Source of the DNA: Escherichia phage PSD2002
DNA length: 64,000 nucleotides
Sequence record: OK335775.1
Strand: one strand, 5' to 3'
Shown here: one piece after another, positions 1,057 to 58,389 of the stretch
Position numbering within the stretch: position 1 is the first letter of the stretch
Layout of the letters: the number at the start of each line of letters is the position of its first letter
Notes under the pieces: generated by a model
What the model was told of the DNA's origin: nothing
Database searches by the model: none
The model's input: only the letters and a program-made list of their open reading frames with translations
Translations under genes and position numbers: made by a program

Positions 1057-2061
1057 TTAGAATTCGAAGATAATGTTAATTTCTTCTGTTTGGTCCATGG
1101 AACGAATAACCGGAGGACGGTTTTCCATATAAATCATTTCACCGGAATGGCGGGAGAGGTCTATAACATCATAGTACTCTTTTTCGGCTTTAATGATCGG
1201 ATCGGATGGGTGAGCTTTAGCTTCTAATGGATTAGAGATTATCGAAAGCTGTCTAAATCCTTTGTTACCAGGAAGACTAAATTCAGGGAAGTAAACTGAA
1301 TCTAAGAATGCTTTAAAACGAATGGTATTGCCTTTAATACGATAAATCAATCCATAATCGTCTTGCTGCCAAGTAAGGTTATTCTCGTATCCCCAACGTT
1401 CTGGGTCTTCAGCAATTTCTTCCGGCCATGGAACCACAATATATTCATTAGTGCAACGGTTGATACTTACATCAGGTGGAATCTCATACAAATATTCCCA
1501 GAGATATCCATCACCTGTATCAACCATACCTTCCGTATCGCCTTGTCCTGCAGGGGCTTTAACCGATTGTACGTTTGAAGTCCATTTACCACCAAGTTTA
1601 ATACACTCAGTTTTATTATCAAGGGACAAAATAGAACATGTACCCGATTCAGGAATATCTACACAACGATAAACCATCCACCCAGCGCCGACATCAGTAC
1701 GGTTTTGCGGCTGGCTGTTCGCCACTACAATTTCACCAATCTGGAAAGTAAATGGGTTAGGATAAGAGGTATCGCCCCAGTCTTTGCGCGGGACAACACA
1801 ATCCAACATGCTCTTATAAACCTTAACACAACCCATCATGTTTGTCCAGACGTCTTCTACGCCCTCAGAATCATCTACAGGATATGGTGGTGCAAAACCC
1901 GGGTCATTTTCGTTATCGGCCCATGGTCGGGCCCTTCCGAAAGATACATACATGGTGTTCTGGTCTTCACCATCACCTATTGTTCTGTAAAAGTTGTACA
2001 TTTTTTCCGTTCTAAATTTTGAAGTAACAATAGAACGATAAACTACTGTAGAATTAATCAT
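1057..2061 (-). CDS. 8: baseplate wedge subunit gp8
   Basis: 334 aa, same length as T4 gp8; position between gp9 and gp7; stop/start overlap with gp7. Confidence 0.8.
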   Translation of the reverse strand: MINSTVVYRSIVTSKFRTEKMYNFYRTIGDGEDQNTMYVSFGRARPWADNENDPGFAPPYPVDDSEGVEDVWTNMMGCVKVYKSMLDCVVPRKDWGDTSYPNPFTFQIGEIVVANSQPQNRTDVGAGWMVYRCVDIPESGTCSILSLDNKTECIKLGGKWTSNVQSVKAPAGQGDTEGMVDTGDGYLWEYLYEIPPDVSINRCTNEYIVVPWPEEIAEDPERWGYENNLTWQQDDYGLIYRIKGNTIRFKAFLDSVYFPEFSLPGNKGFRQLSIISNPLEAKAHPSDPIIKAEKEYYDVIDLSRHSGEMIYMENRPPVIRSMDQTEEINIIFEF

Positions 2062-5000
2062 TAATTTTTACCTGAGTTGGAACTTTAGGGTCTCTAGGAT
2101 TTCCAATACCGTCTTTAAGACGCTTATCAACCAGTGCACGCCAATTGGCAAAGGTCACCACACTTTGGTCAAACAATGGACTATGCTTTTTAATACGTTC
2201 GTGTGGTAATTGACCTTGGAATACAGAGAAATCATTTTCTGCATCATAATCGGCAGGAATATCAAACGGTTCTCCTGCTTTAGGTCCTACGTTGTACGTT
2301 GGAGCACCTGTACGAGGGTCTCGTTCTATATTACCATCAAAACCTATTACAGCAACTCTATCATACCATTCAGATGGCAAACCTGAGTCCCATTTATAGT
2401 TCTTAAGGATATTAATAATAGTTTCTGTATGTTTTAGCGTTAAACCTACGTTAACAAACATAGAAAGCAAAGTTATACCTACAAAGCCGAAACCTACTGG
2501 ATGAACAAATCTCAAAACATCGTTGCGGTAACGAGAGGTAGGGAGATTAGACTTAATAGTCATAACATAATAAGAACGGTTACGGTTGATATAGTCGATA
2601 TTGTTACTCAAAAGCTCTTTACCACGTACACCCCGAACAATCATACCCTTGAACGAAGTACGTTCAGATTTAATTTCCTGACCGACTATAAAACGACCTA
2701 AAAGGTTATGAATGGTTAAACGCCATTGCAGTTTACCTTGTTTATAGTTACGTTCAATATAAGTAACATTACTACGTCCTGTAGGAGTATAAATGGTTTG
2801 GCCGACAATATCTTCACTGATATTATCAGATTCTACGATGATATCATATTCGATAGAGTTCTTGGACTCGATATCAATTTCGACATCTTCGTTGTAAAGC
2901 AATTTAAACAGGAATTTATATGAAGCTTCGGTACCTTTAGTAGACCAAAAATCGCTTTGGCGCGCCTGGAAAAAACGAACAACTTCATCGCGTTTTTCCT
3001 TCGACAAATAGATATTACGCTTATAGATTTCTGACCACAAATATTCCCATGAATCTTCTTCACGTGGGTATTGGTTACGAATAAGATTCAACAAATTATT
3101 ATAGTGTGTACCAGAACCATCACTAATAAATTGGAGATAGTATTCACAGAATTTTTCAAAGTTAGAATCTTGAAGCAAATAACTATCTGGAATCATTTTA
3201 ACCAGTAAAGGCTGGAGGTCTGGGTCCTGCTCACCAACTTCCTCTTTAGGTTTCCATGGGATTTCATGTTCTTGGTTTTGCAATTCTGCCGTAAACATAA
3301 TTTCTTTAGGCTTCCAAATAACACGGACTTCATCACGCACGCGATAGTCAAATTCAAAATATCCAACCAATTCGCCTGTAGATTTGTGAATCATCATTCC
3401 GGAAGAATATTTCTTAAAGCCATTAAACTCTATATTAGGAGATGTGACTTTACAAAAACCTTTATTCCAAATCTCATGAACAATACGTTCAGGTGAAGAA
3501 CCACTGTTCAGGTCGATAATTTTCTGGTATAAAGCATCATTATAAACAACCATCGCATGGTCGCCAGTAGTAATCCATGAACGGGTTCCATCACGACGAG
3601 ACCAACTAAAGAATGGTTCGGCATAATAAGCCATACGCCCAGGTTTAAATTCTTTGAAATCGGATTTAGAGTTAGACCTAAAACTCATCATCAAATAATG
3701 TTTATCGTGAATCCATTGTTCATCTTTAACATATTTAACGGCGGAGGTGACAATTTCAGGGTATTCCAAAGGAAGCTCAGAATCAACCTCTACTTCATAT
3801 CTAAAGTTGCTTGAACTGAAAAATAATTCCTCTCCGTCGGTAGACATGCTGGTATATCCATGCTCTATACGACGACGTTCTTCTTCTGTGTTTCCAAATA
3901 CACGAGTCCATGTATCAGTTGAAGTGTCTAACCAATAAACACCTTTGGATTCAGAATCAACCACATTGGATTCGACCGTAGGGTCCATTTTTTCTTCTTT
4001 AACTTCACCTGTAATTAAAGCAAATGTATGGCCTTGGATAGAATCTAATTTATAACAAACAGCTTTAGGGTTCCCTGTGATAGTCGAATATCCGCTTTCA
4101 AATATCTTCTCTCCATAAGTCGGAGAACTAGGGTCGGTGTCTATAGGGGCTTCAGATGTTTTTGCTTTATAAACTCTGTCTCTACCGGCAACATAAATGA
4201 ATTCATCAGATGCGCACATGGCCTCGGCAATAGTAGAAATAGGTAAAGGAAGCTTTGCATATGAACCGAATATCTCAATTTCAAATGGAAGGTCGATATC
4301 GCTACCTATTTTAGCAAAAGTTACATCTTGGGAACTAAATCTAACGTCATCAGCAGACCAACGAATATCACTTGATTTACGTCCGTAAAATATTTGGTCA
4401 TAACCTAGAACATAAGTGGTCGTGTCGGTTTGGTAGTGTACCGTACGTGAAACAGGGTTACCTACTCGGTCATTAAACAAACGGATATAATGCCAGTTCT
4501 GCCCTTTATCATTAGAAACCTTAGCGGTACTTTGGAATCTTTCTAAAAGGTAAAGTACGCCACCGAGTTCCATTAAAATAGAACGTTTAGGGTCTTTACA
4601 AACCGCTTGGATGCTTCCTTGGATTTCATGGAAACGGTCAGCTTTTAAAACATAATTTGATATAGATGACAAATGCGAATATGCAGGGGTAAAGTTAAAA
4701 TCTTCACTCATCAAAGAAGCCATAATGGCGTCAGTATTAAAGTTCACATAATTCTGATTATTTTTTGTGAATTTTTCTTCAATAAATTTATTAGACAAAG
4801 TGAATTCGCGCATATGCTCAAATGTATATGCGTTGGTAGAGAAAGTTTCAAATTCTTCAGTGTAAACCCATTCGGACTGCTCAAACCCCTGGGCGGCCAC
4901 CGCAACTCGCATTTTATAAAATGAATTAGGAGAAATGAATGCCTCTTCAAACCATTCGTTATTAGGGGTGTAACCTAAATTTCTCCAAAATAATCTATCG

Positions 5001-5149
5001 TCGGGAATTTCTACACCCGCATCCTTCGTTTGGGCCAGTTCTACGAAATAATAGAAGTTGGCGCCTACGTCATCCCAAAGAATGCTCACATGGTTAGCCG
5101 AGAGTTTATCAATTCTCAGACTAGTAACATAAGGCGCTTGTACAGACAT
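2054..5149 (-). CDS. 7: baseplate wedge initiator gp7
   Basis: 1031 aa (T4 gp7 is 1032 aa); synteny. Confidence 0.85.
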   Translation of the reverse strand: MSVQAPYVTSLRIDKLSANHVSILWDDVGANFYYFVELAQTKDAGVEIPDDRLFWRNLGYTPNNEWFEEAFISPNSFYKMRVAVAAQGFEQSEWVYTEEFETFSTNAYTFEHMREFTLSNKFIEEKFTKNNQNYVNFNTDAIMASLMSEDFNFTPAYSHLSSISNYVLKADRFHEIQGSIQAVCKDPKRSILMELGGVLYLLERFQSTAKVSNDKGQNWHYIRLFNDRVGNPVSRTVHYQTDTTTYVLGYDQIFYGRKSSDIRWSADDVRFSSQDVTFAKIGSDIDLPFEIEIFGSYAKLPLPISTIAEAMCASDEFIYVAGRDRVYKAKTSEAPIDTDPSSPTYGEKIFESGYSTITGNPKAVCYKLDSIQGHTFALITGEVKEEKMDPTVESNVVDSESKGVYWLDTSTDTWTRVFGNTEEERRRIEHGYTSMSTDGEELFFSSSNFRYEVEVDSELPLEYPEIVTSAVKYVKDEQWIHDKHYLMMSFRSNSKSDFKEFKPGRMAYYAEPFFSWSRRDGTRSWITTGDHAMVVYNDALYQKIIDLNSGSSPERIVHEIWNKGFCKVTSPNIEFNGFKKYSSGMMIHKSTGELVGYFEFDYRVRDEVRVIWKPKEIMFTAELQNQEHEIPWKPKEEVGEQDPDLQPLLVKMIPDSYLLQDSNFEKFCEYYLQFISDGSGTHYNNLLNLIRNQYPREEDSWEYLWSEIYKRNIYLSKEKRDEVVRFFQARQSDFWSTKGTEASYKFLFKLLYNEDVEIDIESKNSIEYDIIVESDNISEDIVGQTIYTPTGRSNVTYIERNYKQGKLQWRLTIHNLLGRFIVGQEIKSERTSFKGMIVRGVRGKELLSNNIDYINRNRSYYVMTIKSNLPTSRYRNDVLRFVHPVGFGFVGITLLSMFVNVGLTLKHTETIINILKNYKWDSGLPSEWYDRVAVIGFDGNIERDPRTGAPTYNVGPKAGEPFDIPADYDAENDFSVFQGQLPHERIKKHSPLFDQSVVTFANWRALVDKRLKDGIGNPRDPKVPTQVKIND

Positions 5150-5176
5150 TAAATCTCCTTAAACCTCCGAAGAGGC

Positions 5177-7135
5177 TTATATTGTAATTGGTTCCAACTC
5201 TATAGTTGTGTACTGAGGACGAAGGTCATCTTCAAATACGATTAAAGAACCGTCTTTGGTAAAGATGTTGTCTTGGTCTGGCCCTGCATAAAGTTCAATA
5301 GACTGGACTTCAAAACGATCGGAAGTAAGGCCTATTGCGGCGATATCCCAGAAAATAAAGTCCGAGTAATAATCAATTTCGCCAATAACATAGTAGACCG
5401 ATTGGTCTGCAGGCGCTGCCATTTTATCAAAGTCATCTCCGGTGTAAGGTTGGATGTATTGGTTTTCAATTACATCGCCAGGTCGGAAAGGACCTATAAC
5501 CATTTTACCATCGCCTCGTTCGTCTTTATCTGTGGCAACAATACGTACGTTGTAAGATTTAACAACATCAGATACGTTTGTTGGGACGAACTCAAATTCA
5601 CTAGAAGTTACAGAACGGTTGGTGTATTGATTATAGTATTTAATACCCGCTTCAGGTGTTTTGAAGAAGTTTAATACCTCGCGAACCATTGTTACCGTAG
5701 CCGAAGAGCCAAGGATACTGTGGTCTGCATTATCAATATAAGTCAGCATTTTAGACTTGGCAAATCCGTGGTTGAATATTTCAACTTCGTTAATATAATA
5801 ACGGTCTATTTGGGAAAGGATTTGGGCCGTTAACCATTGTTCGGATTCCTGTAATTTGTTCAGTGCATATGAAACCTTAATTTTATGCTTCAAGAACAAG
5901 TAGTCAGGAGAAATAACCGAAGGGGTAATAGGTGCCAAGTTAAATTCTGAAAGATAATTTTGGATATCTTCGCGTTGAACCGCAGTCAAATACAATCCTG
6001 ATTTAGGTTTAATGGTAACAAAGGCATAACCTGGTTTATTTGGGTCTGTAAAGGTTTGTACTGCTTGTACAATAGAACCAAATCGCTCCGAAACGAATGT
6101 ATCATAATCTGTACCGGTTACAGCACGCATCTGGGCTTCACGTTTAACTACAGCAAGTTCACGAATACGTTCAATATCTTCAGGGTCACCACCACCGTCA
6201 GCACCTACATAATCCGGGTTTTCATCGTAGTTTTCTGTAATTTTTTCAACCGTAATATATGCCAAAGAATCCGCATAACTAAAGTCCACTGCCCCGTTAG
6301 CAACTTCACCATCTGTACGAAGGTATTCTATAACAATGGTAGCATCTTTAACAGGTTTTAAACCACCAATATAATTAGCTTCTAATACCCCACCTGCAAC
6401 TGATTTTTCAGCAACACCTTCACCAAAGAAGAATTCAGTATTACCATCTACGGTTTCACGCATATAGTAAATTGTTGATGTACTACCAGCATGAACCATG
6501 GATTTATTAGTCCAGTTAGTCCATTCTGCGCCATCGACATAAAGTTTAACTTCCTGTCTATCAATATCCGGGTCACGAATAAGAATAGGAGTTTTAGGGT
6601 CATACTTAAGTTCAGTACGGATAATACGACCTTGTGCTAAAGATACGATAGGAAGATATTGGTTATTAACATCACGTACGGCAATAACGTTTTCCGTGGT
6701 AACAAAAGAATACGGGTCTGCTGAAGTATCACGGGCATAGGCCAAGAATTTAGTACCACGTGGGATACGAATATTCTTTTCATTCAGGGCTTGGGTACAG
6801 GTCAACATGATACTTGTTTTGGCTGCTGATTTAGAACTTGGCAAATAGCCGTTATCCTGTGCAGCCTGGACGACGGAGGAACGCAAGTTAGCAGTACCGA
6901 TGAAAGATTCATATACCGCGGTATTAGCAAACTGCTGCATATACAGGGTGTTGTAAGCTAACATGTCAATCAGGATATTCATTCGCGAACCAACGAAATC
7001 GTAATCCTTAAATTCGTCCTGGCTAGAAAGCCAATCGATAATATTCTTTTTAATCTCTTCAAACGTAGCTCCCACAAATACTTTTGGGATAGCGTTAACG
7101 GTTCTTGTTAATTGGTAATTCGTAGGAGTAGCCAT
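5177..7135 (-). CDS. 6: baseplate wedge subunit gp6
   Basis: 652 aa (T4 gp6 is about 660 aa); synteny between gp7 and the gene 5 region. Confidence 0.85.
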   Translation of the reverse strand: MATPTNYQLTRTVNAIPKVFVGATFEEIKKNIIDWLSSQDEFKDYDFVGSRMNILIDMLAYNTLYMQQFANTAVYESFIGTANLRSSVVQAAQDNGYLPSSKSAAKTSIMLTCTQALNEKNIRIPRGTKFLAYARDTSADPYSFVTTENVIAVRDVNNQYLPIVSLAQGRIIRTELKYDPKTPILIRDPDIDRQEVKLYVDGAEWTNWTNKSMVHAGSTSTIYYMRETVDGNTEFFFGEGVAEKSVAGGVLEANYIGGLKPVKDATIVIEYLRTDGEVANGAVDFSYADSLAYITVEKITENYDENPDYVGADGGGDPEDIERIRELAVVKREAQMRAVTGTDYDTFVSERFGSIVQAVQTFTDPNKPGYAFVTIKPKSGLYLTAVQREDIQNYLSEFNLAPITPSVISPDYLFLKHKIKVSYALNKLQESEQWLTAQILSQIDRYYINEVEIFNHGFAKSKMLTYIDNADHSILGSSATVTMVREVLNFFKTPEAGIKYYNQYTNRSVTSSEFEFVPTNVSDVVKSYNVRIVATDKDERGDGKMVIGPFRPGDVIENQYIQPYTGDDFDKMAAPADQSVYYVIGEIDYYSDFIFWDIAAIGLTSDRFEVQSIELYAGPDQDNIFTKDGSLIVFEDDLRPQYTTIELEPITI

Positions 7136-7136
7136 T

Positions 7137-9224
7137 TTAATTCCTAGTAGGAGATTCTAAACAAGGTATGCAAATGGAAAGGGATGGAAATGCAATCGTT
7201 AAACCGAATATTCCCAGCATCTTATTAATCCATTGTACCACCTTACTTAAGGATAATGTTGATATTTGGTTATACATTGATTTGCACAAGTCTTTCATTG
7301 ACCTGGAACCATCAGTAAATTCGTGATATAAAGATTTTGCTTTAGTTACTGAGTTCTCGTATATAACCATGATATCATCTACAGTAGCTCCGAGCATACC
7401 GAGAAGTTCTTCCATTTGAGCCACAATAGGAAGTTTTTTGAATTCTTCTAAAGCCATATCTAATACATCAGAAACGGAGGTTTGACTTTCGGTAATAGAG
7501 TTCTTAATCTGATTATATTTATTCTTTAAAAGTTCGAGTGCAGCTTCAGCTTGTGCTAATGCGGCTTCCTTCTGAGCAGTTAGCTCGTCTGTAACTTTTT
7601 CGTACATTCCTGAAAGATATTGTTTAAATTCAATAGCTTGTTTTTGTACTTCTTGCTTTTTGAGCTTAATCTCATTCCACAGATTGAGTGCCTGGGTTTT
7701 AAGAGCCTCAATCATTGCATAAGCTTCGTCTATTTTCTGGTCTACCTTTTCCATAACCATTTGATAAACATCTGATGCTGTGAATCCTGGAAAGTTACCG
7801 CTCATTATCATGTCCAGTGGTTTAACTTGCTTCATCATTTCCTTGACCGCAGTAATAACGCTCCAAACTGGGTTCGGAACTATAGGAGGCATACTCCATA
7901 TTTGAGCGAGGTCTACACACAGTTTTGATAATGCAACACCAGCCATAAGCAATTGAGACCAGGCCCAGTCATACAAGTCTGTAATTGCATCAATAAGGTC
8001 ACGCGAATACATCTTGACGCGTTCAACCGAATAATCGTATGCAGACCCAATGGCAGAATAAATCGATTGGATGGTTTCTTCTAAATTAAAGTTTTTCCAT
8101 GCTTCTTTTAATTTCTGTACACCATCACCTGAAGTGCAGAGGTCTTCTAGGTCAATAGTCATGCCCATAATAGTAATCGAGGGTAAAAAGCTTTTAAGTA
8201 AGTCCCACCCACCGCCAACAATATCCAAGACCTGTGATATGGCATCTTTAAATGCAAGAAAAGCCATTTGCTGAACATATTGACACATAGCAACAGCTGA
8301 GTTGCCTAGCTCTTCCATTGCGACCGATAGCTTACTATAACCAGAATCGAAGAATTTTTCCCAATCGGTTCCACCAGATGATGGCCATCCAGGGAGCATA
8401 TCCCAATATAATTTGAATGAATTCCTAGATGTATTCCATGAAGCCATAATCGCATTGGTCAATCCGTTGTAAGGGAATTCCGCTGTAAAAGGAACACAGC
8501 TTATTGCCCTGGCTCGCCCGGTTATTTCTGGCGGTAAAGACCCGATGGATACCGGTCCCGGAATCGGAGTTCCTGGGATACTCATATCAACATCTAGATT
8601 TAATACCAGTCCAACATAAGTACAAGGTTTTGTCTCATAGTACTTCAAATAAGCCCTGCGGGAGTCACCAAGGCCGTTAAAGTTGACATACATATGATAA
8701 TCAGCCGTAACTGCAATCATCGTCCTGGGGTCCATTCTGGGGCCTTGTGATGTCCATACACCGCCACAGTTTTCGATGCGATACATATCATATTCAATAG
8801 ATGTTTTATACAATACAGATTTTGATAAATCAGCGCCGTACCAATCATTACCGGGCAAAAGAGTTGCACCAATCGATTCTACATAATTTTCTAAATCCAA
8901 TTGCGTAATAAAGAATATTCCGAGTTTAGCACACCAGATACCTTGACTTGTTCCATCTTCCGGTGGGGGAGGTGCAGGAAAAGTTTCGGACTTATTACCA
9001 AATGGATTTTGTGTGTATAAATGTGTAGCTAGTGGAATAATCTCGGTATCCCATTCAACGCCATTCCCAGGTTGAATAAAAGCACCTGTTGGGTTATATA
9101 ATTCCCATTTAACCCGGCGATATTCACCGGGTCCTACTGCGTCATCACAGGGACTTGTTACAGTCCCTACCACTTCATCAACTTTATCGTAGTAATTCAT
9201 ATTAACCGACCTGTACGTTGCCAC
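7137..9224 (-). CDS. large uncharacterised protein between gp5 and gp6 (695 aa; globular N-terminal two-thirds, C-terminal coiled coil and hydrophobic tail)
   Basis: Long ORF translationally coupled to gp5 (23-nt overlap) and gp6 (adjacent codons); occupies the slot where T4 has small genes 5.1-5.4; no motif I recognise. Confidence 0.7.
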   Translation of the reverse strand: MATYRSVNMNYYDKVDEVVGTVTSPCDDAVGPGEYRRVKWELYNPTGAFIQPGNGVEWDTEIIPLATHLYTQNPFGNKSETFPAPPPPEDGTSQGIWCAKLGIFFITQLDLENYVESIGATLLPGNDWYGADLSKSVLYKTSIEYDMYRIENCGGVWTSQGPRMDPRTMIAVTADYHMYVNFNGLGDSRRAYLKYYETKPCTYVGLVLNLDVDMSIPGTPIPGPVSIGSLPPEITGRARAISCVPFTAEFPYNGLTNAIMASWNTSRNSFKLYWDMLPGWPSSGGTDWEKFFDSGYSKLSVAMEELGNSAVAMCQYVQQMAFLAFKDAISQVLDIVGGGWDLLKSFLPSITIMGMTIDLEDLCTSGDGVQKLKEAWKNFNLEETIQSIYSAIGSAYDYSVERVKMYSRDLIDAITDLYDWAWSQLLMAGVALSKLCVDLAQIWSMPPIVPNPVWSVITAVKEMMKQVKPLDMIMSGNFPGFTASDVYQMVMEKVDQKIDEAYAMIEALKTQALNLWNEIKLKKQEVQKQAIEFKQYLSGMYEKVTDELTAQKEAALAQAEAALELLKNKYNQIKNSITESQTSVSDVLDMALEEFKKLPIVAQMEELLGMLGATVDDIMVIYENSVTKAKSLYHEFTDGSRSMKDLCKSMYNQISTLSLSKVVQWINKMLGIFGLTIAFPSLSICIPCLESPTRN

Positions 9225-10989
9225 CAGATACTTTAGCTAATGAACCGCCATCCATATGCACAGTATTTGATGCGTTTAAATTAATGTTCGTCGCTGCAAA
9301 ATTTAAATCTTGTTCGACATTTACATCCATATTTTGAGCATTGATTGTGGCCTTTTGTTTAACGCTTATATCTGCATTCTGGTTGACATTAACTGTTGTA
9401 TCTTTTTCAACCGTAATATATGCTTCTTGTTCAACAGTTATATCAGCAGTACCCATAATAACTATTTTAACATTTCCTTTAACAAGCAGAGTTCCATTAC
9501 CTTCTACAGTTTTGGTTTCATTCCCTCGAATATGAATGCTTTCAGACCCATCAGTTTGACGGCGCACGTTTGCCATATTATAATAGGTTTCATCGCCACC
9601 AACGTTGACTTTATTATTACCACCAACATAAGTATTTGAATCGCCTTGGGTCATATAATAACCATCGGCTACCGTCTTAGAAGTTTTACGTCCATCAGGA
9701 GCAACTTCTTCATAACTACCGGTAGGATGGATTAAACGGTATCGTTCTTGCCCTGGGGTATTATCGAATTCTTGGATATGCCCGCCTTCAGTTTGCATGG
9801 TTTGGACATATGGATATTCGCCTTTATAACTAGAATCAGGTTCTTTAAAAAGAATCCTTGTGTCTTCTGGAGTCCACGGGTCGGCAGGGTCTGAATTTGT
9901 AGGGGCCACAAAGGTTTGAATCATTCTATACGAACGGCCATTAAATGACCTTTCTTTAGGGGCCATAATACCATATGATTCCATGTTACCTGTGAGGATA
10001 ATCATTGACACCCTTGATGCGCGACCTTTAGTTTGGTTAAACCATACCGAATTACGGGCTTCTTCAAATGCCTTTTTATAATCGCCTATTAACATTGCAC
10101 TAAGCATTCCACGGAATTTAGCAAGCCCACCTAATCCCATTTGGAAAGCCATGTTTTCAAGAGCCATTTGTCTCGAACGGTTTTCTTTATTATAAACAGG
10201 ACCTACAACACTATGCAGGCCTATATCATTTTGGACTTTTTTAAGGTCGTCTTGGAATAATTTAGAAACCTCGTCCATTGATATTGCACCAGGGTTACCT
10301 TTAACTTCTCGTCCTACCTGATTAGATAATATTTTGTTTATTTGATTCATATCTCTAATAGGTTGTGGCGTAATAAGGTGACCTATACCTATAGTAGGAT
10401 AACCTTCGGTATCCCAATATACCTTCAGTCTAAGCCCTTCATCACGATGAAGCATGTTTTCTATTGTGAAATTAGGATTATCATCAGGCTTGACTTGGCT
10501 CAAATCCAAACCGTCTGGGTTAATACCTACATCGGTGTTTGCATCTTGTATTACGTTGGAAGTGGCATCATATCCAACTTCACCACCTCGGTTTAAAGCC
10601 GCGGCATCATTACCTAAATAAAGTGGGTATTGACCTGTCGGGTCGCTAAAACCTTCATTAGGATTAGCCTTTTGTCTTGAAGCGGAACCGTATGTACCAA
10701 GGACCAGTCCGTTTAATTTCCACTTATCAAGAAAATGCCCATAAACCTGTGTACCAGGAACCATACCGGTCATGGCGGTTTGAATACCTGAAACAGAGGC
10801 TGAAGATGTAGGCATTAATACCGACATCCATGGTAAATCTTCTGTACGAAGGCCTTTTACTGGACCTTGCACTTTTTCGTATGGATGCATGCCCCATACG
10901 CGCACGCGTACTCGGCCTTGTTGGAGTGGGTCCATTCGGTCTTCAACTACGCCGACGAACCAACTGACATTATCAGACATGTTAATCAT
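9202..10989 (-). CDS. 5: baseplate hub subunit and tail lysozyme gp5
   Basis: 595 aa; N-terminal OB region NVSWFVGVVEDRMDPLQQGRVRVRVWGMHP; lysozyme segment DEGLRLKVYWDTEGYPTIGIGHLI; C-terminal repetitive VxVxxN beta-helix. Confidence 0.9.
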   Translation of the reverse strand: MINMSDNVSWFVGVVEDRMDPLQQGRVRVRVWGMHPYEKVQGPVKGLRTEDLPWMSVLMPTSSASVSGIQTAMTGMVPGTQVYGHFLDKWKLNGLVLGTYGSASRQKANPNEGFSDPTGQYPLYLGNDAAALNRGGEVGYDATSNVIQDANTDVGINPDGLDLSQVKPDDNPNFTIENMLHRDEGLRLKVYWDTEGYPTIGIGHLITPQPIRDMNQINKILSNQVGREVKGNPGAISMDEVSKLFQDDLKKVQNDIGLHSVVGPVYNKENRSRQMALENMAFQMGLGGLAKFRGMLSAMLIGDYKKAFEEARNSVWFNQTKGRASRVSMIILTGNMESYGIMAPKERSFNGRSYRMIQTFVAPTNSDPADPWTPEDTRILFKEPDSSYKGEYPYVQTMQTEGGHIQEFDNTPGQERYRLIHPTGSYEEVAPDGRKTSKTVADGYYMTQGDSNTYVGGNNKVNVGGDETYYNMANVRRQTDGSESIHIRGNETKTVEGNGTLLVKGNVKIVIMGTADITVEQEAYITVEKDTTVNVNQNADISVKQKATINAQNMDVNVEQDLNFAATNINLNASNTVHMDGGSLAKVSGGNVQVG

Positions 10990-11591
10990 TAGAGGGCTTT
11001 CTCCATTTCTCTAATTAAAGCGGAAACAAAGGACTCGATGTCATTAGGGTCTATAATCTTTATTTCGCGCTTATATTCATTTTTACGAATGGCGTCCTCG
11101 TAAATATCTACTGCAGCCAAAGGACCTTCATATTGAGGATAACGTTTTTCTGTATCACCTTTATCGTACCAAGTATAAGGATTTTCCGGAGTATTTACTA
11201 GATTCCAGAATTTCTCACCCTTTTCATTGACATGATAAAGGACTTGGTTTCCGCCTGCAGTAGCATAACGTTGAATAGCTGCTTGATACGCAGATTCTTG
11301 GCCTGTAATCCAGCCGTAATAAGGGTCATATACGTTATTACACATCAATAAAACCCAATATAATTGCACGTTACCATAAAGTTGATGGGCTAATTCTTCT
11401 GGACGAGGGGCCCCACTGATATAATATGTTTTAAGTGTATAATTTTTAGCCACTTTATCAAAATATTCTTTATAGTTTCTAAATATATCAGTCATCGGTA
11501 CGCTCAGTACATCGGCATCAGTTAATGAGCCGGAATCTGGCTTGACTGTTTTTGATTCGTAATTTATAGGATCGAAAAATGAGAAGAGCAT
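10989..11591 (-). CDS. 53: baseplate wedge subunit gp53
   Basis: 200 aa (T4 gp53 is 196 aa); position upstream of gene 5; divergent late promoter immediately upstream. Confidence 0.75.
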   Translation of the reverse strand: MLFSFFDPINYESKTVKPDSGSLTDADVLSVPMTDIFRNYKEYFDKVAKNYTLKTYYISGAPRPEELAHQLYGNVQLYWVLLMCNNVYDPYYGWITGQESAYQAAIQRYATAGGNQVLYHVNEKGEKFWNLVNTPENPYTWYDKGDTEKRYPQYEGPLAAVDIYEDAIRKNEYKREIKIIDPNDIESFVSALIREMEKAL

Positions 11592-11603
11592 AGTGCCTCC
11601 GAG

Positions 11604-11618: not shown

Positions 11619-11626
11619 TATTTATA
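11619..11626 (-). promoter_or_regulatory. late promoter (TATAAATA) for gene 53
   Basis: Minus-strand TATAAATA about 25 nt upstream of the gp53 ATG, followed by GGAGG. Confidence 0.6.
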
Positions 11627-14341: not shown

Positions 14342-15034
<693 letters not shown>

Positions 15035-15041
15035 GAACAAA

Positions 15042-15371
15042 ATGAAAACATATAACGAATTTGTACAAACTGAAGCAATTAATGAAGTAGCCATCCCTAA
15101 ACCGGCTAAAGCTGACGGTACTGAGTACTACCATATTGAAACATCTTTTGATGCAGCTTCAGATATGGCTAACGGGCTTGGTGATTTCATCCGTCAAGCT
15201 AAGTCCGACCTGGCTAAATTTACAAAGACCCTTGATAAAGAGCAAAAGAAACCTTTCTCGGATCTGGCTAAAAAACTGGACGCGTTAAATGACAAGGTCT
15301 TTAAAGAAGTTTACCACGGTATGATTGGTCTTACCCGTGAATTCAATGCTGAAGTTAAAAAACTTCCCTAA
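15042..15371 (+). CDS. internal protein (IPI-position) with capsid-targeting N-terminus
   Basis: Starts MKTYNEFVQTE; T4 internal proteins begin MKTYQEFIAE (capsid targeting sequence); located after 57B as ipI is in T4. Confidence 0.65.
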   Translation: MKTYNEFVQTEAINEVAIPKPAKADGTEYYHIETSFDAASDMANGLGDFIRQAKSDLAKFTKTLDKEQKKPFSDLAKKLDALNDKVFKEVYHGMIGLTREFNAEVKKLP

Positions 15372-15380
15372 GTACAGATA

Positions 15381-15402
15381 AGGAGCCACAAAGCTCCTTT
15401 TT
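15381..15402 (+). terminator. rho-independent terminator
   Basis: AGGAGC-CACAAA-GCTCCT hairpin followed by TTTTT. Confidence 0.6.
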
Positions 15403-15419
15403 GTATCTAAACAAAAGGT

Positions 15420-15450
15420 GTTTACTTTCCTGGATAGCCGTGATACTATA
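15420..15450 (+). promoter_or_regulatory. T4-type early promoter cassette
   Basis: GTTTAC ... TGATACTATAGCCCTATCAA; one of at least 15 near-identical copies. Confidence 0.6.
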
Positions 15451-15987: not shown

Positions 15988-16018
15988 GTTTACAACGGGC
16001 TTTAGCCGTGATACTATA
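15988..16018 (+). promoter_or_regulatory. T4-type early promoter cassette
   Basis: GTTTAC ... TGATACTATAGCCCTATCAAAACAAA, then conserved leader GAGTGAATGGAGAATAAAATG. Confidence 0.6.
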
Positions 16019-16053
16019 GCCCTATCAAAACAAATGAGTGAATGGAGAATAAA

Positions 16054-16239
16054 ATGAAACGTTGTGAATTAATTAGAAATGTTACTGCACTGGCCGCTGT
16101 TACTGCTTTTGGCTTTAGTATGTTTGCAGGATTCATGCTCGATATGCTTTCAACTTCCGAGAATATAATCTCTTTAGTAGTGGCATTTTTAATTGGTTCA
16201 ATTTCTTTTGTTATGGATAAAATCTCTAAAGGTGAGTAA
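16054..16239 (+). CDS. small membrane protein (61 aa)
   Basis: ATG after GGAGA; hydrophobic core VTALAAVTAFGFSMFAGFML and LVVAFLIGSISFV. Confidence 0.5.
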   Translation: MKRCELIRNVTALAAVTAFGFSMFAGFMLDMLSTSENIISLVVAFLIGSISFVMDKISKGE

Positions 16240-16240
16240 A

Positions 16241-16621
16241 ATGTATAAAGTGTATGCAGATTATCAGGCAAATCCATCTGAAAAACCAGATTGTCAAATT
16301 GGGTGGGCACACGACACCCTGCTTAAGGCGGTAGATAAAGCCCAGGAATTAGGGTATAGTTATGTGGATATTGTTCAACCCAATGGGACCGTTATTACAC
16401 TTGAAGAATTCAAGAATATCAAAACAAACTTTTTGCTCTTTGCGGGTGATAACTATTACCCTCGTGGCGGTTATGCCGACTTAATCGCAAAGGCCGCTAC
16501 TGAAGATGAACTGCGCGATATCATTAAAGAAAATGAGAATAACCCTCTTTACGGTTCTAATCGTTTTGACTGGTGGCAGATTGTTAATGCCAATACCCAT
16601 ACTATTGTAGACGAGGGTTAA
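16241..16621 (+). CDS. hypothetical protein
   Basis: ORF with AAAGGTGAG SD; start immediately after the stop of the upstream gene. Confidence 0.5.
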   Translation: MYKVYADYQANPSEKPDCQIGWAHDTLLKAVDKAQELGYSYVDIVQPNGTVITLEEFKNIKTNFLLFAGDNYYPRGGYADLIAKAATEDELRDIIKENENNPLYGSNRFDWWQIVNANTHTIVDEG

Positions 16622-17358: not shown

Positions 17359-17435
17359 GGCCCTGTAGCTCAATGGTTAGCAGCAGTCCCCTCATAAGGG
17401 AAAGGTTACCAGTTCAAATCTGGTCCGGGTCACCA
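17359..17435 (+). tRNA. tRNA, anticodon CAT (Met/Ile-lysidine type)
   Basis: Acceptor stem GGCCCTG/CCGGGTC, T-arm ACCAG-TTCAAAT-CTGGT, anticodon loop CTCATAA, encoded CCA. Confidence 0.75.
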
Positions 17436-17440: not shown

Positions 17441-17515
17441 GTCCCGCTGGTGTAATGGATAGCATACGATCCTTCTAAGTTTGCGGTCCTGGTTCGATCC
17501 CAGGGCGGGATACCA
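17441..17515 (+). tRNA. tRNA-Arg (anticodon TCT)
   Basis: Acceptor GTCCCGC/GCGGGAT, T-arm CCTGG-TTCGATC-CCAGG, anticodon loop CTTCTAA, encoded CCA. Confidence 0.8.
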
Positions 17516-28196: not shown

Positions 28197-28337
28197 GGGA
28201 GCAACCTGGACCTCATAATTCAGTGAGGGACTCCCGCCAACCTGTAATAAGGTCGAGCCCAAGTGCGGTAATGGGTAAATGCAGAAAGGGACGAATTATG
28301 TGCCAAGGAATGGCCCACAACTTAAAAAGAGACAATT

Positions 28338-28883
28338 ATGAAAACGTTTTTAACCGGTAGTTATCTATCCCTGATGAATGCTTTTGCAAACCATTCTGAT
28401 GCTAGAGTAGAACACATTTGTAATAGTGGGTTTTATGTACCCGATTCACAAACCCTGTTTAAAGAATGCTGCACCTTAAAACTTGATGGTGGGCGCCAAT
28501 CCGGTAAAACTAAAGCAGTATCCATTTTTGCGTCTGATTGGTTAGCTGATGGCGGCTCTATTGTTATTTTGTCTAATTGCGCCGCGTATGCTAATGTTTC
28601 GGCTACTGCAATCCGAAAGGAATATTTTAATAACCATACAGAAAGTATTAAGTATCGTTTGTACACTGATTCTGTTCGTAGTTTTATTGGTAATACTGCA
28701 TGCAAATTCCGTGGATTATCGCTTTCACGTGTTCTGTATATAATTGATGAGCCTGTTAAAACACCCGATATGGATAAGATTTATGATGCCCATATAAAGG
28801 CGGTGCAACATTGCTGTCATGCATCATGTGTCGAAACCAATCAAACTGCACGTCCTCTGTTCTTTGTGATAGGAATGCAATGA
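28338..28883 (+). CDS. P-loop NTPase-like protein
   Basis: Walker A-like GGRQSGKT and Walker B-like LYIIDEP. Confidence 0.5.
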   Translation: MKTFLTGSYLSLMNAFANHSDARVEHICNSGFYVPDSQTLFKECCTLKLDGGRQSGKTKAVSIFASDWLADGGSIVILSNCAAYANVSATAIRKEYFNNHTESIKYRLYTDSVRSFIGNTACKFRGLSLSRVLYIIDEPVKTPDMDKIYDAHIKAVQHCCHASCVETNQTARPLFFVIGMQ

Positions 28884-29725: not shown

Positions 29726-30184
29726 ATGTCAGAAATTAATTCAGAAGTATTCATCCGCCGCAACAAATTACGTCGTCAGTTCGAAACCGAATTCCGCGAA
29801 CTGAACACGTCCATCAAAAAAGCCGCCGTTAAGAGCGGAGTCCCGGCCTTCTTTATTAAGTACTCTAATCACTTGTTGGACCGTGCTATCCAACGTGAAA
29901 TCGACGAAAAATACGTTTTTGCTTTATTCAAGCAACTCCATAACCATGTTAAAGAAATCCATGAATTTTTAATCCAGGAACCTCTGCCTGATGTAGAATC
30001 CGAAATTGTCCCTGGTAAAGTGTATCGTCCATTGCGTCTCGAAATTACCGATAAAACCTTATGGCTAGGTATGACCGTAGACCGTAAACATCCTGATAAA
30101 GGATATTCCCTTAAATGTCGTATGGCATTTGTTAACTCTAAACGTTTAGAAGGTAAAACCAGCACGAAAGTAATTTACTTGTGA
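29726..30184 (+). CDS. hypothetical protein
   Basis: 152-aa ORF downstream of the cassette. Confidence 0.45.
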   Translation: MSEINSEVFIRRNKLRRQFETEFRELNTSIKKAAVKSGVPAFFIKYSNHLLDRAIQREIDEKYVFALFKQLHNHVKEIHEFLIQEPLPDVESEIVPGKVYRPLRLEITDKTLWLGMTVDRKHPDKGYSLKCRMAFVNSKRLEGKTSTKVIYL

Positions 30185-30191
30185 GGACAGT

Positions 30192-30938
30192 ATGGAAACT
30201 ATAAAATATCCATATGACTACTATAAAATAATAAATGACGCCTTATCTAGGGATACACCTAATGATGCCTATACAGAAAAGCACCATATAATACCGAGTT
30301 GCGTTGGTGGTCCTGACACTCAAGACAATTTAGTTGAGCTTTATGCTGACGAACATTATTTGGCCCATATGTATCTAGCCAAAGCTAATCCAAACCACTA
30401 TGGGTTGAATTTTGCTTGGCTAAATATGAGCTCTACTTCAAATTCAAAACAAAGGTCTTATTTTGTAGATTCTGAAAATTATAAGTTGGCTAAAGAATCA
30501 TTTTCAAAATTGCAATCTATTAATAAAATTTTATTTTTCTCTAAAAAGGAAAATAGGGCTGCTCATTCAATGGCTTTAATAAAGTATTTTGAAAAGGAAG
30601 GCTCTAAAGAACGGCTCAAAGAAATTTTAAATTCGCCAAAAGTAAAAGCTAAAATGTCTGAAAAACGGGTTAAGTATTTTGAAAATCCTGAAAATAGACA
30701 AAAATTTAAAGCCATACAAAATTCTAAAGAAACTATAGAAAGGAAAAAAGCCTCTTTGCGGAAATCCCCTATATGGCATGAACCGATGTATTCACAATTA
30801 TATAAATTATGGGTAGATAATAATAAACTCAAGTGTGGAAGATTTAGTAAAATCGCAATTAAGAACGGCTTCCCTAATGTAGATTACCGAGGACTTATTG
30901 ATTATGATTTTTCTAAAAAAAACTTAAATATTCTTTAA
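30192..30938 (+). CDS. freestanding HNH homing endonuclease
   Basis: HNH motif EKHHIIPSCVGGPDTQDNLVELYADEHYLAHM; C-terminal basic module shared with the endonuclease at 53672. Confidence 0.7.
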   Translation: METIKYPYDYYKIINDALSRDTPNDAYTEKHHIIPSCVGGPDTQDNLVELYADEHYLAHMYLAKANPNHYGLNFAWLNMSSTSNSKQRSYFVDSENYKLAKESFSKLQSINKILFFSKKENRAAHSMALIKYFEKEGSKERLKEILNSPKVKAKMSEKRVKYFENPENRQKFKAIQNSKETIERKKASLRKSPIWHEPMYSQLYKLWVDNNKLKCGRFSKIAIKNGFPNVDYRGLIDYDFSKKNLNIL

Positions 30939-30940
30939 TA

Positions 30941-31462
30941 GTGGCTATTATGTGTGGTTCGTTTTCTGTAAGTGCAGCAGAACCCGTATTTACAGAAACC
31001 CAGCTTGATAATTTACATTATGCGTATGCTTTCGGTGAACAATACCAAAAGTCGGGAAAGTTCAAAGAAAACCCTAATCAAAAAGGATTAGGATATATTA
31101 TGGCCGGATTACTATGGCAGGAATCATCCGCCGGAATTAATCAGGGTTTAAATAAAGATAAGCACCATGCTTATGGCATGTTCCAAAATTACTTGCCTAC
31201 TTTAAGAAGTCGTGTTCAACAGGTAGGTTGGAAGATGTCTGATAAAGAAATAATTCGTATGGTCCAAAAACGACAGAACAGTGCCTCTTGGGCCTACATT
31301 GAACTGTCTTATTGGATTGATGTTCACAAAGGTGACCTGAGAAAAGCGATTGCTTCTTATAATGCGGGCTGGAACGTCAAAGTAGGCAGTAAATATGCTT
31401 CTGAAGTTCTAGAAAAGGCCAATTATCTAAAATCTAAAAAGATGTTTGAGGCGGTATATTAA
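30941..31462 (+). CDS. lytic transglycosylase-like (SLT domain) protein
   Basis: GLLWQESS ... GMFQ ... ASYNAG resemble SLT motifs (ES, GLMQ, AYNAG); hydrophobic N-terminus. Confidence 0.5.
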   Translation: MAIMCGSFSVSAAEPVFTETQLDNLHYAYAFGEQYQKSGKFKENPNQKGLGYIMAGLLWQESSAGINQGLNKDKHHAYGMFQNYLPTLRSRVQQVGWKMSDKEIIRMVQKRQNSASWAYIELSYWIDVHKGDLRKAIASYNAGWNVKVGSKYASEVLEKANYLKSKKMFEAVY

Positions 31463-56374: not shown

Positions 56375-56393
56375 GGGACTTCGGTCCCTTTTT
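56375..56393 (+). terminator. UUCG hairpin with T-tract upstream of gene 43
   Basis: GGGAC-TTCG-GTCCC followed by TTTTT. Confidence 0.55.
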
Positions 56394-56451
56394 GGAGTAT
56401 AATAATTCATCAACAAACAAAAGACAATCACTCGTCTATAAAGGAAATGAA

Positions 56452-58159: not shown

Positions 58160-58389
58160 TAACCAAATAACTCGGCGCACTTTAAACTATGTGAATTCAG
58201 GGAACATCTCTAGTAGACAATCCTGAGCGAAGCCTCTATGAGGAACGTGCAACGACTATCCGAAAGGAGTACACCCAAGTGGGTGGAAGCGCATAGCATC
58301 GAAAGATGATGATATAGTCTGCTCTGCATGGCGACATGCAGCTGGATATAATTCCGGGCTGAGCTTAACGACCTCAGTTGAACACCGTG
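58160..58389 (+). ncRNA. putative self-splicing group I intron (ORF-less, 230 nt) in gene 43
   Basis: Exon GUGCGU pairs with intron GCGCAC (58175-58180) with U.G at the splice site; GACUA (58254) and UAGUC (58315) form a P7-like pairing; terminal G at 58389; splicing restores GAL-GNVWFRYYD. Confidence 0.65.

What the first reader, a model, noticed from the sequence alone, without database searches (positions are those of the whole stretch)
7137..9224. 695-aa ORF in the hub-wedge junction between genes 5 and 6
In T4 the interval between gene 5 (cell-puncturing hub/lysozyme) and gene 6 holds only small genes (5.1-5.4, including the PAAR-like spike tip gp5.4). Here a single 695-aa ORF is translationally coupled on both sides (23-nt overlap with gene 5; stop adjacent to the gene 6 start). 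No PAAR-like small ORF is visible. The protein has a globular N-terminal two-thirds, a long C-terminal coiled coil (roughly aa 500-620) and a hydrophobic Cys-containing tail. Its position suggests a structural or ejected baseplate/spike-associated protein.
Basis: partly seen in the sequence, partly recalled or inferred. Interest (0 to 1): 0.7.

Follow-up and report, generated by a model that had tools for sequence, protein, structure and literature searches.

The report
Non-PAAR spike-tip gene cassette
The large gene between baseplate genes 5 and 6 is real, but it belongs to an already described family (phage RB43 orf205w) thought to cap the tail's membrane-piercing spike in place of the small PAAR tip protein of T4; the new point is that it travels between phages as a unit with the end of the spike it would sit on.

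Summary
The ORF is real (window 7137-9224, minus strand). Its true start is almost certainly the ATG at 9200, giving 687 aa, one base after gene 5's stop, so the reported 23-nt overlap with gene 5 is probably not real.

It is a full-length homolog (43% identity) of RB43 orf205w. A 2025 preprint and a 2026 paper propose that family as a non-PAAR spike tip occupying the T4 5.1-5.4 slot.

- No gp5.4/PAAR gene exists in the window or in the whole genome of the near-identical phage WG01.
- The protein has no sequence or fold relative outside its own small family.
- The gene is exchanged as a cassette with the last ~75-105 codons of gene 5, the spike's beta-helix tip. Same-genus siblings carry a different gp5 tip plus 5.1-like and PAAR genes at the same breakpoints. 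SP18, from another genus, shares the cassette at 99.3% DNA identity while its flanks are 73-78% identical.

This co-inheritance supports a physical pairing of tip protein and spike end. Presence in the virion, copy number and function remain untested for this phage.

Verdict: new member of a known but barely characterised kind; moderate interest.

The parts
7137..9200 (-). Tip-protein gene: 687 aa plus stop, 76.7 kDa, pI 4.66. Homolog of RB43 orf205w, WG01 ORF156 and SP18gp165.
   Evidence: ORF. PHROG 5296 at E=0, aligned from residue 9 of the 695-aa version. 43% identity over the full length with RB43 orf205w. Mass and pI.
9201..9224 (-). In-frame upstream extension to a GTG, overlapping the end of gene 5. 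Probably not translated.
   Evidence: All homologs and the family profile start at the ATG at 9200. No Shine-Dalgarno sequence is visible before the GTG.
9202..9525 (-). 3' end of gene 5 (codons ~489-595), encoding the distal beta-helix and the flat tip '...SGGNVQVG'. It belongs to the exchangeable cassette.
   Evidence: Last 60 aa: 4/60 identical to the PAAR-type same-genus sibling, 25/60 to RB43, 88% to G8. The near-identity with SP18 ends at about 9525, and the homology with the PAAR-type sibling resumes at 9433.
7092..9525 (.). The cassette as defined by comparison: a block 97-100% identical to SP18 (Gaprivervirus), with flanks 63-93% identical. Its core, 7147-9432, is the stretch replaced by a different gp5 tip plus 5.1-like and PAAR genes in Dhakavirus sibling ABTNLS3.
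   Evidence: There are 17 mismatches in 7136-9450 and dense mismatches outside.
9202..10989 (-). Gene 5: spike and tail lysozyme, 595 aa.
   Evidence: Pfam Gp5_OB 3e-61, Phage_lysozyme, Gp5_trimer_C, Gp5_C.
5177..7135 (-). Gene 6: baseplate wedge. Its AGGA Shine-Dalgarno sequence lies within the last codons of the tip gene.
   Evidence: Five gp6 Pfam domains. Junction sequence AGGAATTAAAATG.
11619..11626 (-). T4-type late-promoter box TATAAATA upstream of gene 53. It is the only such box on this strand upstream of the 53-5-tip-6-7 run.
   Evidence: Late co-transcription is an inference from position only; the box count in the window is not above chance.
8331..9200 (-). N-terminal alpha/beta domain (aa 1-290), with invariant Cys18 and Cys193 and the NDWYGADL motif. 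No fold relative was found.
8217..8321 (-). Core helix 1 (aa 294-328).
   Evidence: AF2. Corresponds to Helios gp203 helix 287-327 of the single-chain three-helix core (PMC13611949). Lies in a high-conservation zone.
7896..8009 (-). Core helix 2 (aa 398-435), with a hydrophobic peak at aa 417-435.
   Evidence: AF2. Kyte-Doolittle 19-residue window value 1.51. Corresponds to Helios gp203 helix 398-440.
7476..7778 (-). Long helical hairpin (aa 475-575), the 'coiled coil'. It is the least conserved part of the protein.
   Evidence: AF2 helices 475-529 and 538-575. Conservation 2.1 bits against 3.0 for the core. It is the source of all the weak coiled-coil database hits.
7155..7310 (-). Core helix 3 (aa 631-664) and the hydrophobic C-terminal beta-hairpin (aa 662-682, LGIFGLTIAFPSLSICIPCL; Cys677 conserved in 96%).
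   Evidence: AF2. Kyte-Doolittle value 1.87 and conservation 3.0 bits. Corresponds to Helios gp203 helix 631-670.

Best explanation
The gene encodes the spike-tip protein of this phage. It is a non-PAAR cap of the RB43 orf205w type that sits on the flat C-terminal end of the gp5 beta-helix trimer, where T4 carries gp5.4 (and possibly gp5.1).

Shown here:
- It is homologous to orf205w.
- It occupies the 5.1-5.4 slot in the 53-5-tip-6-7 gene run.
- The genome has no PAAR gene.
- It is inherited and exchanged only together with a matching, RB43-type gp5 tip.

Inferred, partly from published models of relatives:
- One copy binds the trimer through a conserved single-chain three-helix core (aa 294-328, 398-435, 631-664) and the hydrophobic C-terminal hairpin, coaxial with the spike.
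- The N-terminal alpha/beta domain and the variable long helical hairpin form the body and the membrane-facing end.
- On sheath contraction this tip is the first part of the virion to meet the outer membrane. Like other spike complexes, it is then released into the periplasm.

The gp5-tip plus tip-gene unit behaves as an exchangeable 'penetration module' that recombines within the beta-helix repeats of gene 5 and at the start of gene 6.
For: - Family membership: PHROG 5296 at E=0; 43% identity end to end with RB43 orf205w; SP18's GenBank note says the same.
- Position and coupling: directly after gene 5 (TAA-t-ATG) and directly before gene 6, with gene 6's Shine-Dalgarno sequence inside the tip gene's last codons. 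G8 and phiP4-3 have the same kind of junctions. The 31%-identical metagenomic homolog P0056 also follows a gp5-type beta-helix end.
- No alternative tip: the gp5.4 profile scan is negative for the window and the whole WG01 genome, with a positive control at 1e-58.
- Co-variation with the spike end:
  - PAAR-type Dhakavirus sibling: gp5 residues 1-480 are 474/480 identical, but the last 60 are 4/60.
  - RB43: 232/480 and 25/60.
  - G8 (Tequatrovirus): 65% and 88%.
  - All gp5 proteins paired with an orf205w-type gene, including the one next to P0056, end in a GxxVxVG motif: (S/T)GG(N/T)V(Q/S)VG in four, TGANVQVG in phiP4-3.
- Cassette behaviour: the block ~7092-9525 is 99% identical to SP18, with flanks at 73-78% nucleotide identity. 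The same block is the one replaced in PAAR-type siblings.
- Purifying selection: dN/dS 0.098.
- Structure: a confident AF2 model (pLDDT 86.5, pTM 0.77). Its three conserved core helices coincide with the three-helix core of the Helios gp203 model, which is docked on the gp5 trimer.
- Literature: RB43 virions carry a larger tip density than T4 in a 17.7 A map (PMC12407873).
Against: - There is no direct evidence for this phage or any close relative. I found no virion proteomics for any family member.
- The RB43 authors could not produce the orf205w-gp5 complex and say the tip is only 'possibly' encoded by orf205w. Their map is low resolution with C6 symmetry imposed.
- Binding geometry and copy number rest on AF3 models by others; I could not run multimer prediction.
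- Co-exchange with the gp5 end could partly reflect where homology permits crossovers rather than a functional pairing.
- A 77-kDa cap is roughly seven times the length of gp5.4 (687 vs 97 aa), so 'sharpening the spike' may not be its whole function.
Confidence: 0.75

Rival explanations
1. It rides on the spike, but its main role is as a delivered membrane-active protein. After outer-membrane puncture, its long helical hairpins and hydrophobic C-terminal hairpin would insert into a host membrane to open or anchor the DNA conduit, as alpha-helical pore formers and secretion-system translocators do. On this reading it is not a passive sharp cap.
For: - It is about seven times longer than gp5.4 (687 vs 97 aa).
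- It has hydrophobic segments at aa 417-435 and 662-681, the latter with a Kyte-Doolittle value of 1.87.
Against: - All those matches are at noise level. They cover only generic helical hairpins, and prefoldin, HlyD and designed helical bundles score as well or better.
- The hydrophobic segments are the most conserved parts. They coincide with the buried three-helix core and the proposed gp5 interface in the published model, which explains their hydrophobicity without any membrane insertion.
- No experiment bears on the question.
Confidence: 0.1
2. It is a non-virion assembly factor: a chaperone needed to fold or trimerise the RB43-type gp5 beta-helix end, discarded before the particle is complete.
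For: This would equally explain the co-inheritance with the gp5 tip and the tight translational coupling. T4 uses several dedicated tail and fibre chaperones (established knowledge of gp57A, gp38 and gp51).
Against: - RB43 virions show extra tip density of a size that the orf205w model can fill (PMC12407873).
- These genomes have no other candidate tip protein.
- 687 aa with a conserved multi-domain fold is large for a chaperone.
Confidence: 0.08
3. It is an unrelated accessory gene in a recombination hot spot (for example a host-interaction or defence-related gene). Its link with the gp5 end would then be a by-product of where crossovers can occur.
For: The 5-6 interval is a known site of ORFan variation in T4-like phages (PMC12407873.1, 5.3 and 5.4 ORFans). 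Nearly all records annotate the gene as hypothetical.
Against: - The pairing of gp5-tip type with this gene holds in six Straboviridae genera (Dhakavirus, Gaprivervirus, Tequatrovirus, Bragavirus, Pseudotevenvirus, Slopekvirus) and in a 31%-identical metagenomic lineage. Across these the tip gene has diverged about as much as its structural neighbours: 72/58/44% identity against 62-69, 47-62 and 48-54% for the flanks.
- Gene length and architecture are invariant.
- It always excludes PAAR.
- No defence or enzymatic domain was found in Pfam or NCBIfam. PADLOC was not run.
Confidence: 0.05
4. It is a tail tape-measure-like protein, as one GenBank record annotates its homolog.
For: Weak PHROG hits to tape-measure families at E 8e-4 and 5e-3. 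Phage Roth22's annotation reads 'tail length tape measure'.
Against: - The hits are sub-threshold and confined to the coiled-coil region.
- WG01 has the usual T4 hub and tube gene block (26, 51, 27, 28, 29, 48, 54) elsewhere, including a gp29-position gene.
- The link to the gp5 tip is unexplained by this idea.
Confidence: 0.02

Closest known systems
RB43 orf205w / Klebsiella phage Helios gp203: putative non-PAAR spike tip of some Straboviridae (PHROG 5296)
   Same: - Full-length homology: 43% identity with RB43 orf205w.
- Same slot, directly after gene 5.
- Same alpha/beta N-terminus plus all-helical remainder.
- Same RB43-type gp5 C-terminus.
- Same absence of gp5.4.
   Different: - This copy sits in a Tevenvirinae (Dhakavirus-type) genome whose same-genus siblings carry the PAAR arrangement.
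- It is part of a cassette shared at 99% DNA identity with a phage of another genus (SP18).
- This within-genus polymorphism and its breakpoints are not described in the two papers I read.
T4 gp5.4 (PAAR, PF05488; PDB 4KU0), with gp5.1
   Same: Same genomic slot. Proposed same job: a single protein capping the flat end of the gp5 beta-helix trimer through a hydrophobic patch.
   Different: - No homology: hhalign probability 0.05%, and no Pfam PAAR hit.
- 687 aa against 97 aa.
- Helical and alpha/beta rather than a small beta cone.
- No His3Cys metal site recognisable, although four Cys are conserved.
- It pairs with a different gp5 end.
Phage P1 UpfB alpha-helical tripod on the PAAR protein UpfC (as described in PMC13611949)
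   Same: A large alpha-helical structure extending beyond the spike tip of a contractile-tailed phage.
   Different: P1 keeps a PAAR protein and adds three copies of a separate helical protein. Here there is no PAAR, and published models place a single chain directly on gp5. I did not test homology to UpfB.
P2 gpV-type spikes with an integral HxH iron-binding apex
   Same: Another way of finishing a spike without a separate PAAR protein.
   Different: In P2 the apex is part of the spike polypeptide. Here gp5 ends in a flat beta-helix platform with no C-terminal HxH motif (visible in the sequence), and the tip is a separate gene.

Membership tests
RB43 orf205w-type spike-tip family (PHROG 5296) | Full-length sequence homology to RB43 orf205w | tested here: met
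   BLASTP gives 43% identity over 687/690 aa, E=0. PHROG 5296 matches at E=0 over profile positions 1-684 of 685.
RB43 orf205w-type spike-tip family (PHROG 5296) | Occupies the T4 5.1-5.4 slot, directly downstream of gene 5 in the baseplate gene run | tested here: met
   The same arrangement is seen in RB43, G8, phiP4-3, SP18 and Bp7.
RB43 orf205w-type spike-tip family (PHROG 5296) | No gp5.4 ortholog in the genome | tested here: met
   A 48-sequence gp5.4 profile run with hmmsearch --max against six-frame ORFs gave best E 2.2 for WG01 and 1.5 for the window; the control scored 1e-58. Single-sequence tblastn and phmmer were also negative. Caveat: the whole genome tested is WG01 (93-99% identical to the window over the aligned blocks), not the window's own phage.
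RB43 orf205w-type spike-tip family (PHROG 5296) | Partner gp5 has the RB43-type C-terminal beta-helix end, divergent from T4-type gp5 | tested here: met
   The last 60 aa are 25/60 identical to RB43 and 4/60 to the PAAR-type sibling. The shared ending is (S/T)GG(N/T)V(Q/S)VG.
RB43 orf205w-type spike-tip family (PHROG 5296) | Architecture: N-terminal alpha/beta region followed by an all-helical remainder containing a three-helix core | tested here: met
   The AF2 model (pLDDT 86.5) has an alpha/beta region at 1-290 and helices at 294-665. Its core helices 294-328, 398-435 and 631-664 match Helios 287-327, 398-440 and 631-670.
RB43 orf205w-type spike-tip family (PHROG 5296) | Physically located at the spike tip in the virion | not testable with these tools
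   The only evidence is indirect: a 17.7 A map of RB43 (PMC12407873). No proteomics was found.
PAAR / gp5.4 (PF05488) | PAAR-repeat sequence signature | tested here: not met
   No PF05488 hit at E<=0.1. hhalign of the family profile against a gp5.4 profile gives probability 0.05%.
PAAR / gp5.4 (PF05488) | Small beta-cone fold with a buried metal site | tested here: not met
Tail tape-measure proteins | Significant match to a tape-measure family, and the only such gene in the tail module | tested here: not met
   Only weak hits in the coiled-coil region, at E 8e-4 and 5e-3. A T4-type hub gene set, including a gene in the gp29 position, is present elsewhere in WG01.
ClyA-family alpha-pore-forming toxins (Hbl-B, YaxB, MakA) | Significant sequence or fold similarity across the helical tail and hydrophobic head | tested here: not met

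The most novel reading that the evidence does not exclude
The orf205w-type tip is more than a larger cap. It would be a delivered, membrane-active penetration module, whose helical hairpins and hydrophobic C-terminal hairpin engage or open a host membrane after puncture. The gp5-tip plus tip-gene cassette would be an interchangeable 'envelope-entry allele' that T4-like phages trade between genera to match different cell envelopes. Natural near-isogenic pairs (WG01 or Bp7 against QL01 or ABTNLS3) make this directly testable.
Probability: 0.12. Interest if true: 0.75.

Novelty: new member of a known kind. Interest (0 to 1): 0.4.

Why it matters
How contractile tails finish the job after puncturing the outer membrane is still unclear, and almost all known spike tips are PAAR proteins or integral iron-binding apexes. 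This family is a third, structurally unrelated solution with no solved structure and no demonstrated function.

The instance here adds a natural experiment. Phages that are 97-99% identical on both sides of the cassette carry either the PAAR arrangement or this one. The swap always includes the matching end of the spike, and the module has recently crossed genus boundaries.

That argues for a physical pairing between tip and spike. It also supplies ready-made near-isogenic pairs for testing what a 77-kDa tip does that a PAAR cap about one-seventh its length does not, for example on LPS-core or capsule variants.

For annotation, about 215 phage records currently call this gene 'hypothetical protein', and a few call it 'tape measure'.

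Tried and rejected
- **Hidden PAAR domain:** rejected. Pfam has no hit and hhalign gives 0.05%.
- **gp5.4 or gp5.1 elsewhere in the genome:** rejected. Both were negative by single-sequence search, and gp5.4 also by the profile scan.
- **Sequence relatives with a solved structure or a curated family:** none. Only coiled-coil noise in PDB, Pfam and NCBIfam.
- **Fold relatives:**
  - Foldseek against the PDB has 0 hits at E<=1e-3.
  - BFVD returns only the protein's own family.
  - The afdb50 library was not available.
- **Remote homologs or variant architectures in 1.84 billion representatives:** only about 8 full-length clusters plus fragments; the rest is coiled-coil noise.
- **Tape-measure annotation:** rejected.
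- **An apparently N-terminally truncated variant in phage phT4A:** this is a run of Ns in a partial assembly, not biology.
- **Virion proteomics for family members:** searched in six papers and found none. The ValerieMcCarty (Jiaodavirus) proteome, judging by its gene numbering, comes from PAAR-type phages with two genes between gp5 and gp6.
- **Fused gp5-tip chain for AF2:** considered as a stand-in for multimer prediction, and not run.
- **3D clustering of the conserved cysteines:** could not be checked, because model coordinates are not exposed.
Full report
**Observation.** An open reading frame runs from 9224 to 7137 on the minus strand, 695 codons from a GTG. Its neighbours are unambiguous by Pfam:
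- gene 53: 10989-11591
- gene 5: 9202-10989 (Gp5_OB 3e-61, lysozyme, Gp5 C-terminal repeats)
- gene 6: 5177-7135 (five gp6 domains)
- gene 7: 2054-5149

The stop codon (7139-7137) is one base from the gene 6 ATG, and gene 6's AGGA Shine-Dalgarno sequence lies in the ORF's last codons.

The start needs correcting. Eight codons into the ORF there is an ATG at 9200, one base after gene 5's TAA. The PHROG family profile aligns from exactly that residue, and all 51 aligned homologs start there with a conserved M-x-Y. GenBank annotates WG01, Bp7 and SP18 that way. G8 has the same TAA-t-ATG junction and phiP4-3 an overlapping TAATG. The protein is therefore 687 aa (76.7 kDa, pI 4.66), and the 23-nt overlap with gene 5 is probably not real.

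The gene itself is certainly real. 215 phage records hold a homolog, 213 of them over at least 80% of the length, and dN/dS against SP18 is 0.098.

**What the window is.** The region is 99% identical to Escherichia phage WG01 and 96% to Bp7, both genus Dhakavirus, Tevenvirinae.

**What the protein is.** There is no significant hit in Pfam, NCBIfam or PDB sequences, only coiled-coil noise over residues ~480-590. PHROG 5296 ('unknown function') matches at E=0.

An AlphaFold2 model built on a 52-sequence alignment is confident (pLDDT 86.5, pTM 0.77). It shows:
- an alpha/beta domain at 1-290
- a helical region at 294-665, including long helices 475-529 and 538-575
- a C-terminal beta-hairpin at 673-682

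A profile search of 1.84 billion cluster representatives finds about 8 full-length clusters plus fragments. Everything weaker matches only the coiled coil. The family is therefore small, uniform in length and architecture, and without a detectable relative.

**It is already in the literature.** A 2025 bioRxiv preprint, 'The spike tip protein of bacteriophage T4' (PMC12407873), makes these points:
- RB43, RB16 and Lw1 lack gene 5.4.
- In them the 5.1-5.4 locus holds orf205w, about 690 aa, with an alpha/beta region at residues 1-220 and the rest helical.
- A 17.7 A cryo-EM map of the RB43 baseplate shows a larger tip than in T4.
- The orf205w-gp5 complex could not be produced.
- The tip is 'possibly' encoded by orf205w.

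A 2026 paper (PMC13611949) models Klebsiella phage Helios gp203 on its gp5 trimer with AF3. It describes a single-chain three-helix core (287-327, 398-440, 631-670) and notes that the function is 'not established experimentally'.

I tested membership directly. The window protein is 43% identical to RB43 orf205w over its full length. SP18's 2010 GenBank record already notes this similarity for its nearly identical copy, which is 99.4% identical in protein.

**No PAAR anywhere.** The PAAR-type sibling ABTNLS3 supplied a same-genus gp5.4 and a 5.1-like protein. Single-sequence tblastn and phmmer against the window and the reassembled 169,936-bp WG01 genome gave nothing better than E of about 0.03-0.2, and those hits are antisense to known genes. 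A 48-sequence gp5.4 profile gave best E 2.2 for WG01 and 1.5 for the window, against 1e-58 for the positive control. A profile-profile comparison of the large protein's family with gp5.4 gives probability 0.05%, so no PAAR domain is hidden inside it either.

**The new evidence: a cassette that includes the spike's end.**

*Replacement in a sibling.* Compared with ABTNLS3, gp6 is essentially 100% identical and gp5 residues 1-480 are 474/480 identical. The last 60 residues of gp5 are 4/60 identical, and the protein is 15 residues longer here. At DNA level, homology runs through 5000-7146 (99.2%) and 9433-11600 (95.6%). The replaced stretch, 7147-9432, is the whole ORF plus the last 77 codons of gene 5. 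In the sibling the equivalent stretch holds a different gp5 end, a 165-aa 5.1-like gene and the 97-aa PAAR gene.

*Similarity to RB43-type spike ends.* The window's gp5 end resembles those of phages carrying the large gene:

| Compared phage | Identity of last 60 gp5 residues |
|---|---|
| RB43 | 25/60 |
| phT4A | 24/60 |
| G8 (Tequatrovirus) | 88% |
| gp5 next to the 31%-identical metagenomic homolog P0056 | 17/60 |

All of these end in a GxxVxVG motif: (S/T)GG(N/T)V(Q/S)VG in four, TGANVQVG in phiP4-3. A tblastn search with the last 100 gp5 residues shows the same split across the collection. The listed 100%-coverage matches are all from phage groups that carry the large gene. T4 and the PAAR-type Dhakaviruses align over only the first 48-55 residues, and some other E. 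coli, Shigella and Citrobacter T4-likes align over 89 residues at 37-39%.

*Conservation across a genus boundary.* SP18 is classified in another genus, Gaprivervirus. Against it the tip gene is 99.3% identical in DNA, while gp6 is 77.5% and gp53 73.0%. The near-identical block runs from about 7092 to 9525, with 17 mismatches in 7136-9450 and dense mismatches outside. That is essentially the same segment that is replaced in PAAR-type siblings.

Two independent comparisons therefore define one unit: gp5 codons ~489/520-595 plus the tip gene. Its crossover zones lie in the beta-helix repeats of gene 5 and at the start of gene 6. The unit is polymorphic within Dhakavirus and within Tequatrovirus (G8), and it has moved recently between genera. 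Over deeper time the tip gene diverges about as much as its structural neighbours: 72, 58 and 44% identity with G8, phiP4-3 and RB43, against 62-69, 47-62 and 48-54% for the flanks. It is an old resident of the module, not a recent foreign insertion.

**Internal anatomy.** Conservation is highest in residues 294-470 and 631-687 (about 3.0 bits) and lowest in the long hairpin 475-575 (2.1 bits). The two hydrophobic maxima, 417-435 and 662-681, fall in the conserved parts. Together with helix 294-328 they coincide with the three-helix core that the Helios AF3 model places coaxial with the gp5 trimer. The 'hydrophobic Cys-containing tail' is thus better read as part of a buried core or interface than as a membrane anchor; this is inference. 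Cys18 and Cys193 are invariant, and Cys235 and Cys677 are 96% conserved. Whether they cluster, as the metal site of PAAR does, could not be checked because model coordinates are not exposed.

**Expression context.** A TATAAATA late-promoter box lies on the minus strand at 11626-11619, just upstream of gene 53, with no other such box before the ORF. This fits late co-transcription with baseplate genes. It is positional inference only, because the number of boxes in the window is not above chance.

**Mechanism.** The most likely account, at about 0.75: one copy caps the flat end of the gp5 trimer in place of gp5.4, and perhaps gp5.1. It is held by the conserved three-helix core and the C-terminal hairpin, it forms the first point of contact with the outer membrane on contraction, and it leaves with the spike into the periplasm.
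- Shown: homology, position, absence of PAAR, co-inheritance with the matching spike end.
- Taken from the literature: larger tip density in RB43, AF3 docking.
- Inferred: copy number, binding surface, fate after puncture.

The rivals are a spike-borne membrane-active effector (0.10), a non-virion assembly factor for the variant gp5 end (0.08), an unrelated accessory gene in a hot spot (0.05), and a tape measure (0.02).

**Verdict.** The kind of gene is already described, though not experimentally characterised. This is a new member of that kind, and the cassette behaviour and within-genus polymorphism are additional indirect evidence for tip-spike pairing. Interest is moderate, at 0.4.

Noticed in passing
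window 58139-58341 (+): A group I intron (Rfam RF00028, 75.9 bits, E 2e-17) interrupts the DNA polymerase gene (gene 43), which is split into ORFs 56392-58170 and 58389-59393. WG01 and QL01 lack it. Only one of 50,697 phage records (vB_EcoM_G2285, 93.8% identical, annotated 'unable to determine intron/exon boundaries') holds the whole element. It is too short to carry a homing endonuclease gene. Parts of it resemble sequences next to HNH or endonuclease VII genes in unrelated phages.
   Followed up: partly
window ~9800-10550 (gene 5, roughly codons 147-397, including the lysozyme domain): Against Bp7 this stretch is only 67-89% identical in DNA, while everything from 5000 to 9500 is 98-100% identical. 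Gene 5 is therefore a mosaic with at least one further exchanged patch besides the tip cassette.
   Followed up: no
tip protein residues Cys18, Cys193, Cys235, Cys677 (also Cys639 at 85%); window ~9147-9149, 8622-8624, 8496-8498, 7170-7172: Four cysteines from distant parts of the chain are invariant or nearly so across the family. This could be a metal site or disulfides, by analogy with the His3Cys iron site of gp5.4. Their 3D proximity could not be checked.
   Followed up: no
window 17359-17435 and 17441-17515 (+): Two adjacent tRNA genes: tRNA-Met (CAT) and tRNA-Arg (TCT).
   Followed up: no
L009 (Escherichia phage phT4A, NC_055712) 2902-3000: The RefSeq record has a run of about 100 Ns inside its orf205w homolog. 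The gene is therefore annotated as a 485-aa fragment, and that truncated protein has propagated into UniProt and BFVD.
   Followed up: yes
window 15033-15433, 15994-16444, 28321-28853, 30181-31009, 53679-54284: These stretches have no counterpart in WG01 in the blastn mapping. They are probably small variable or ORFan insertions in the early and middle gene regions.
   Followed up: no
H30 (Klebsiella phage vB_KleM_kp20, PP993148) 145669-147722: The homolog matches in two pieces under two 'hypothetical protein' features. This is a possible frameshift or sequencing error in that record.
   Followed up: no
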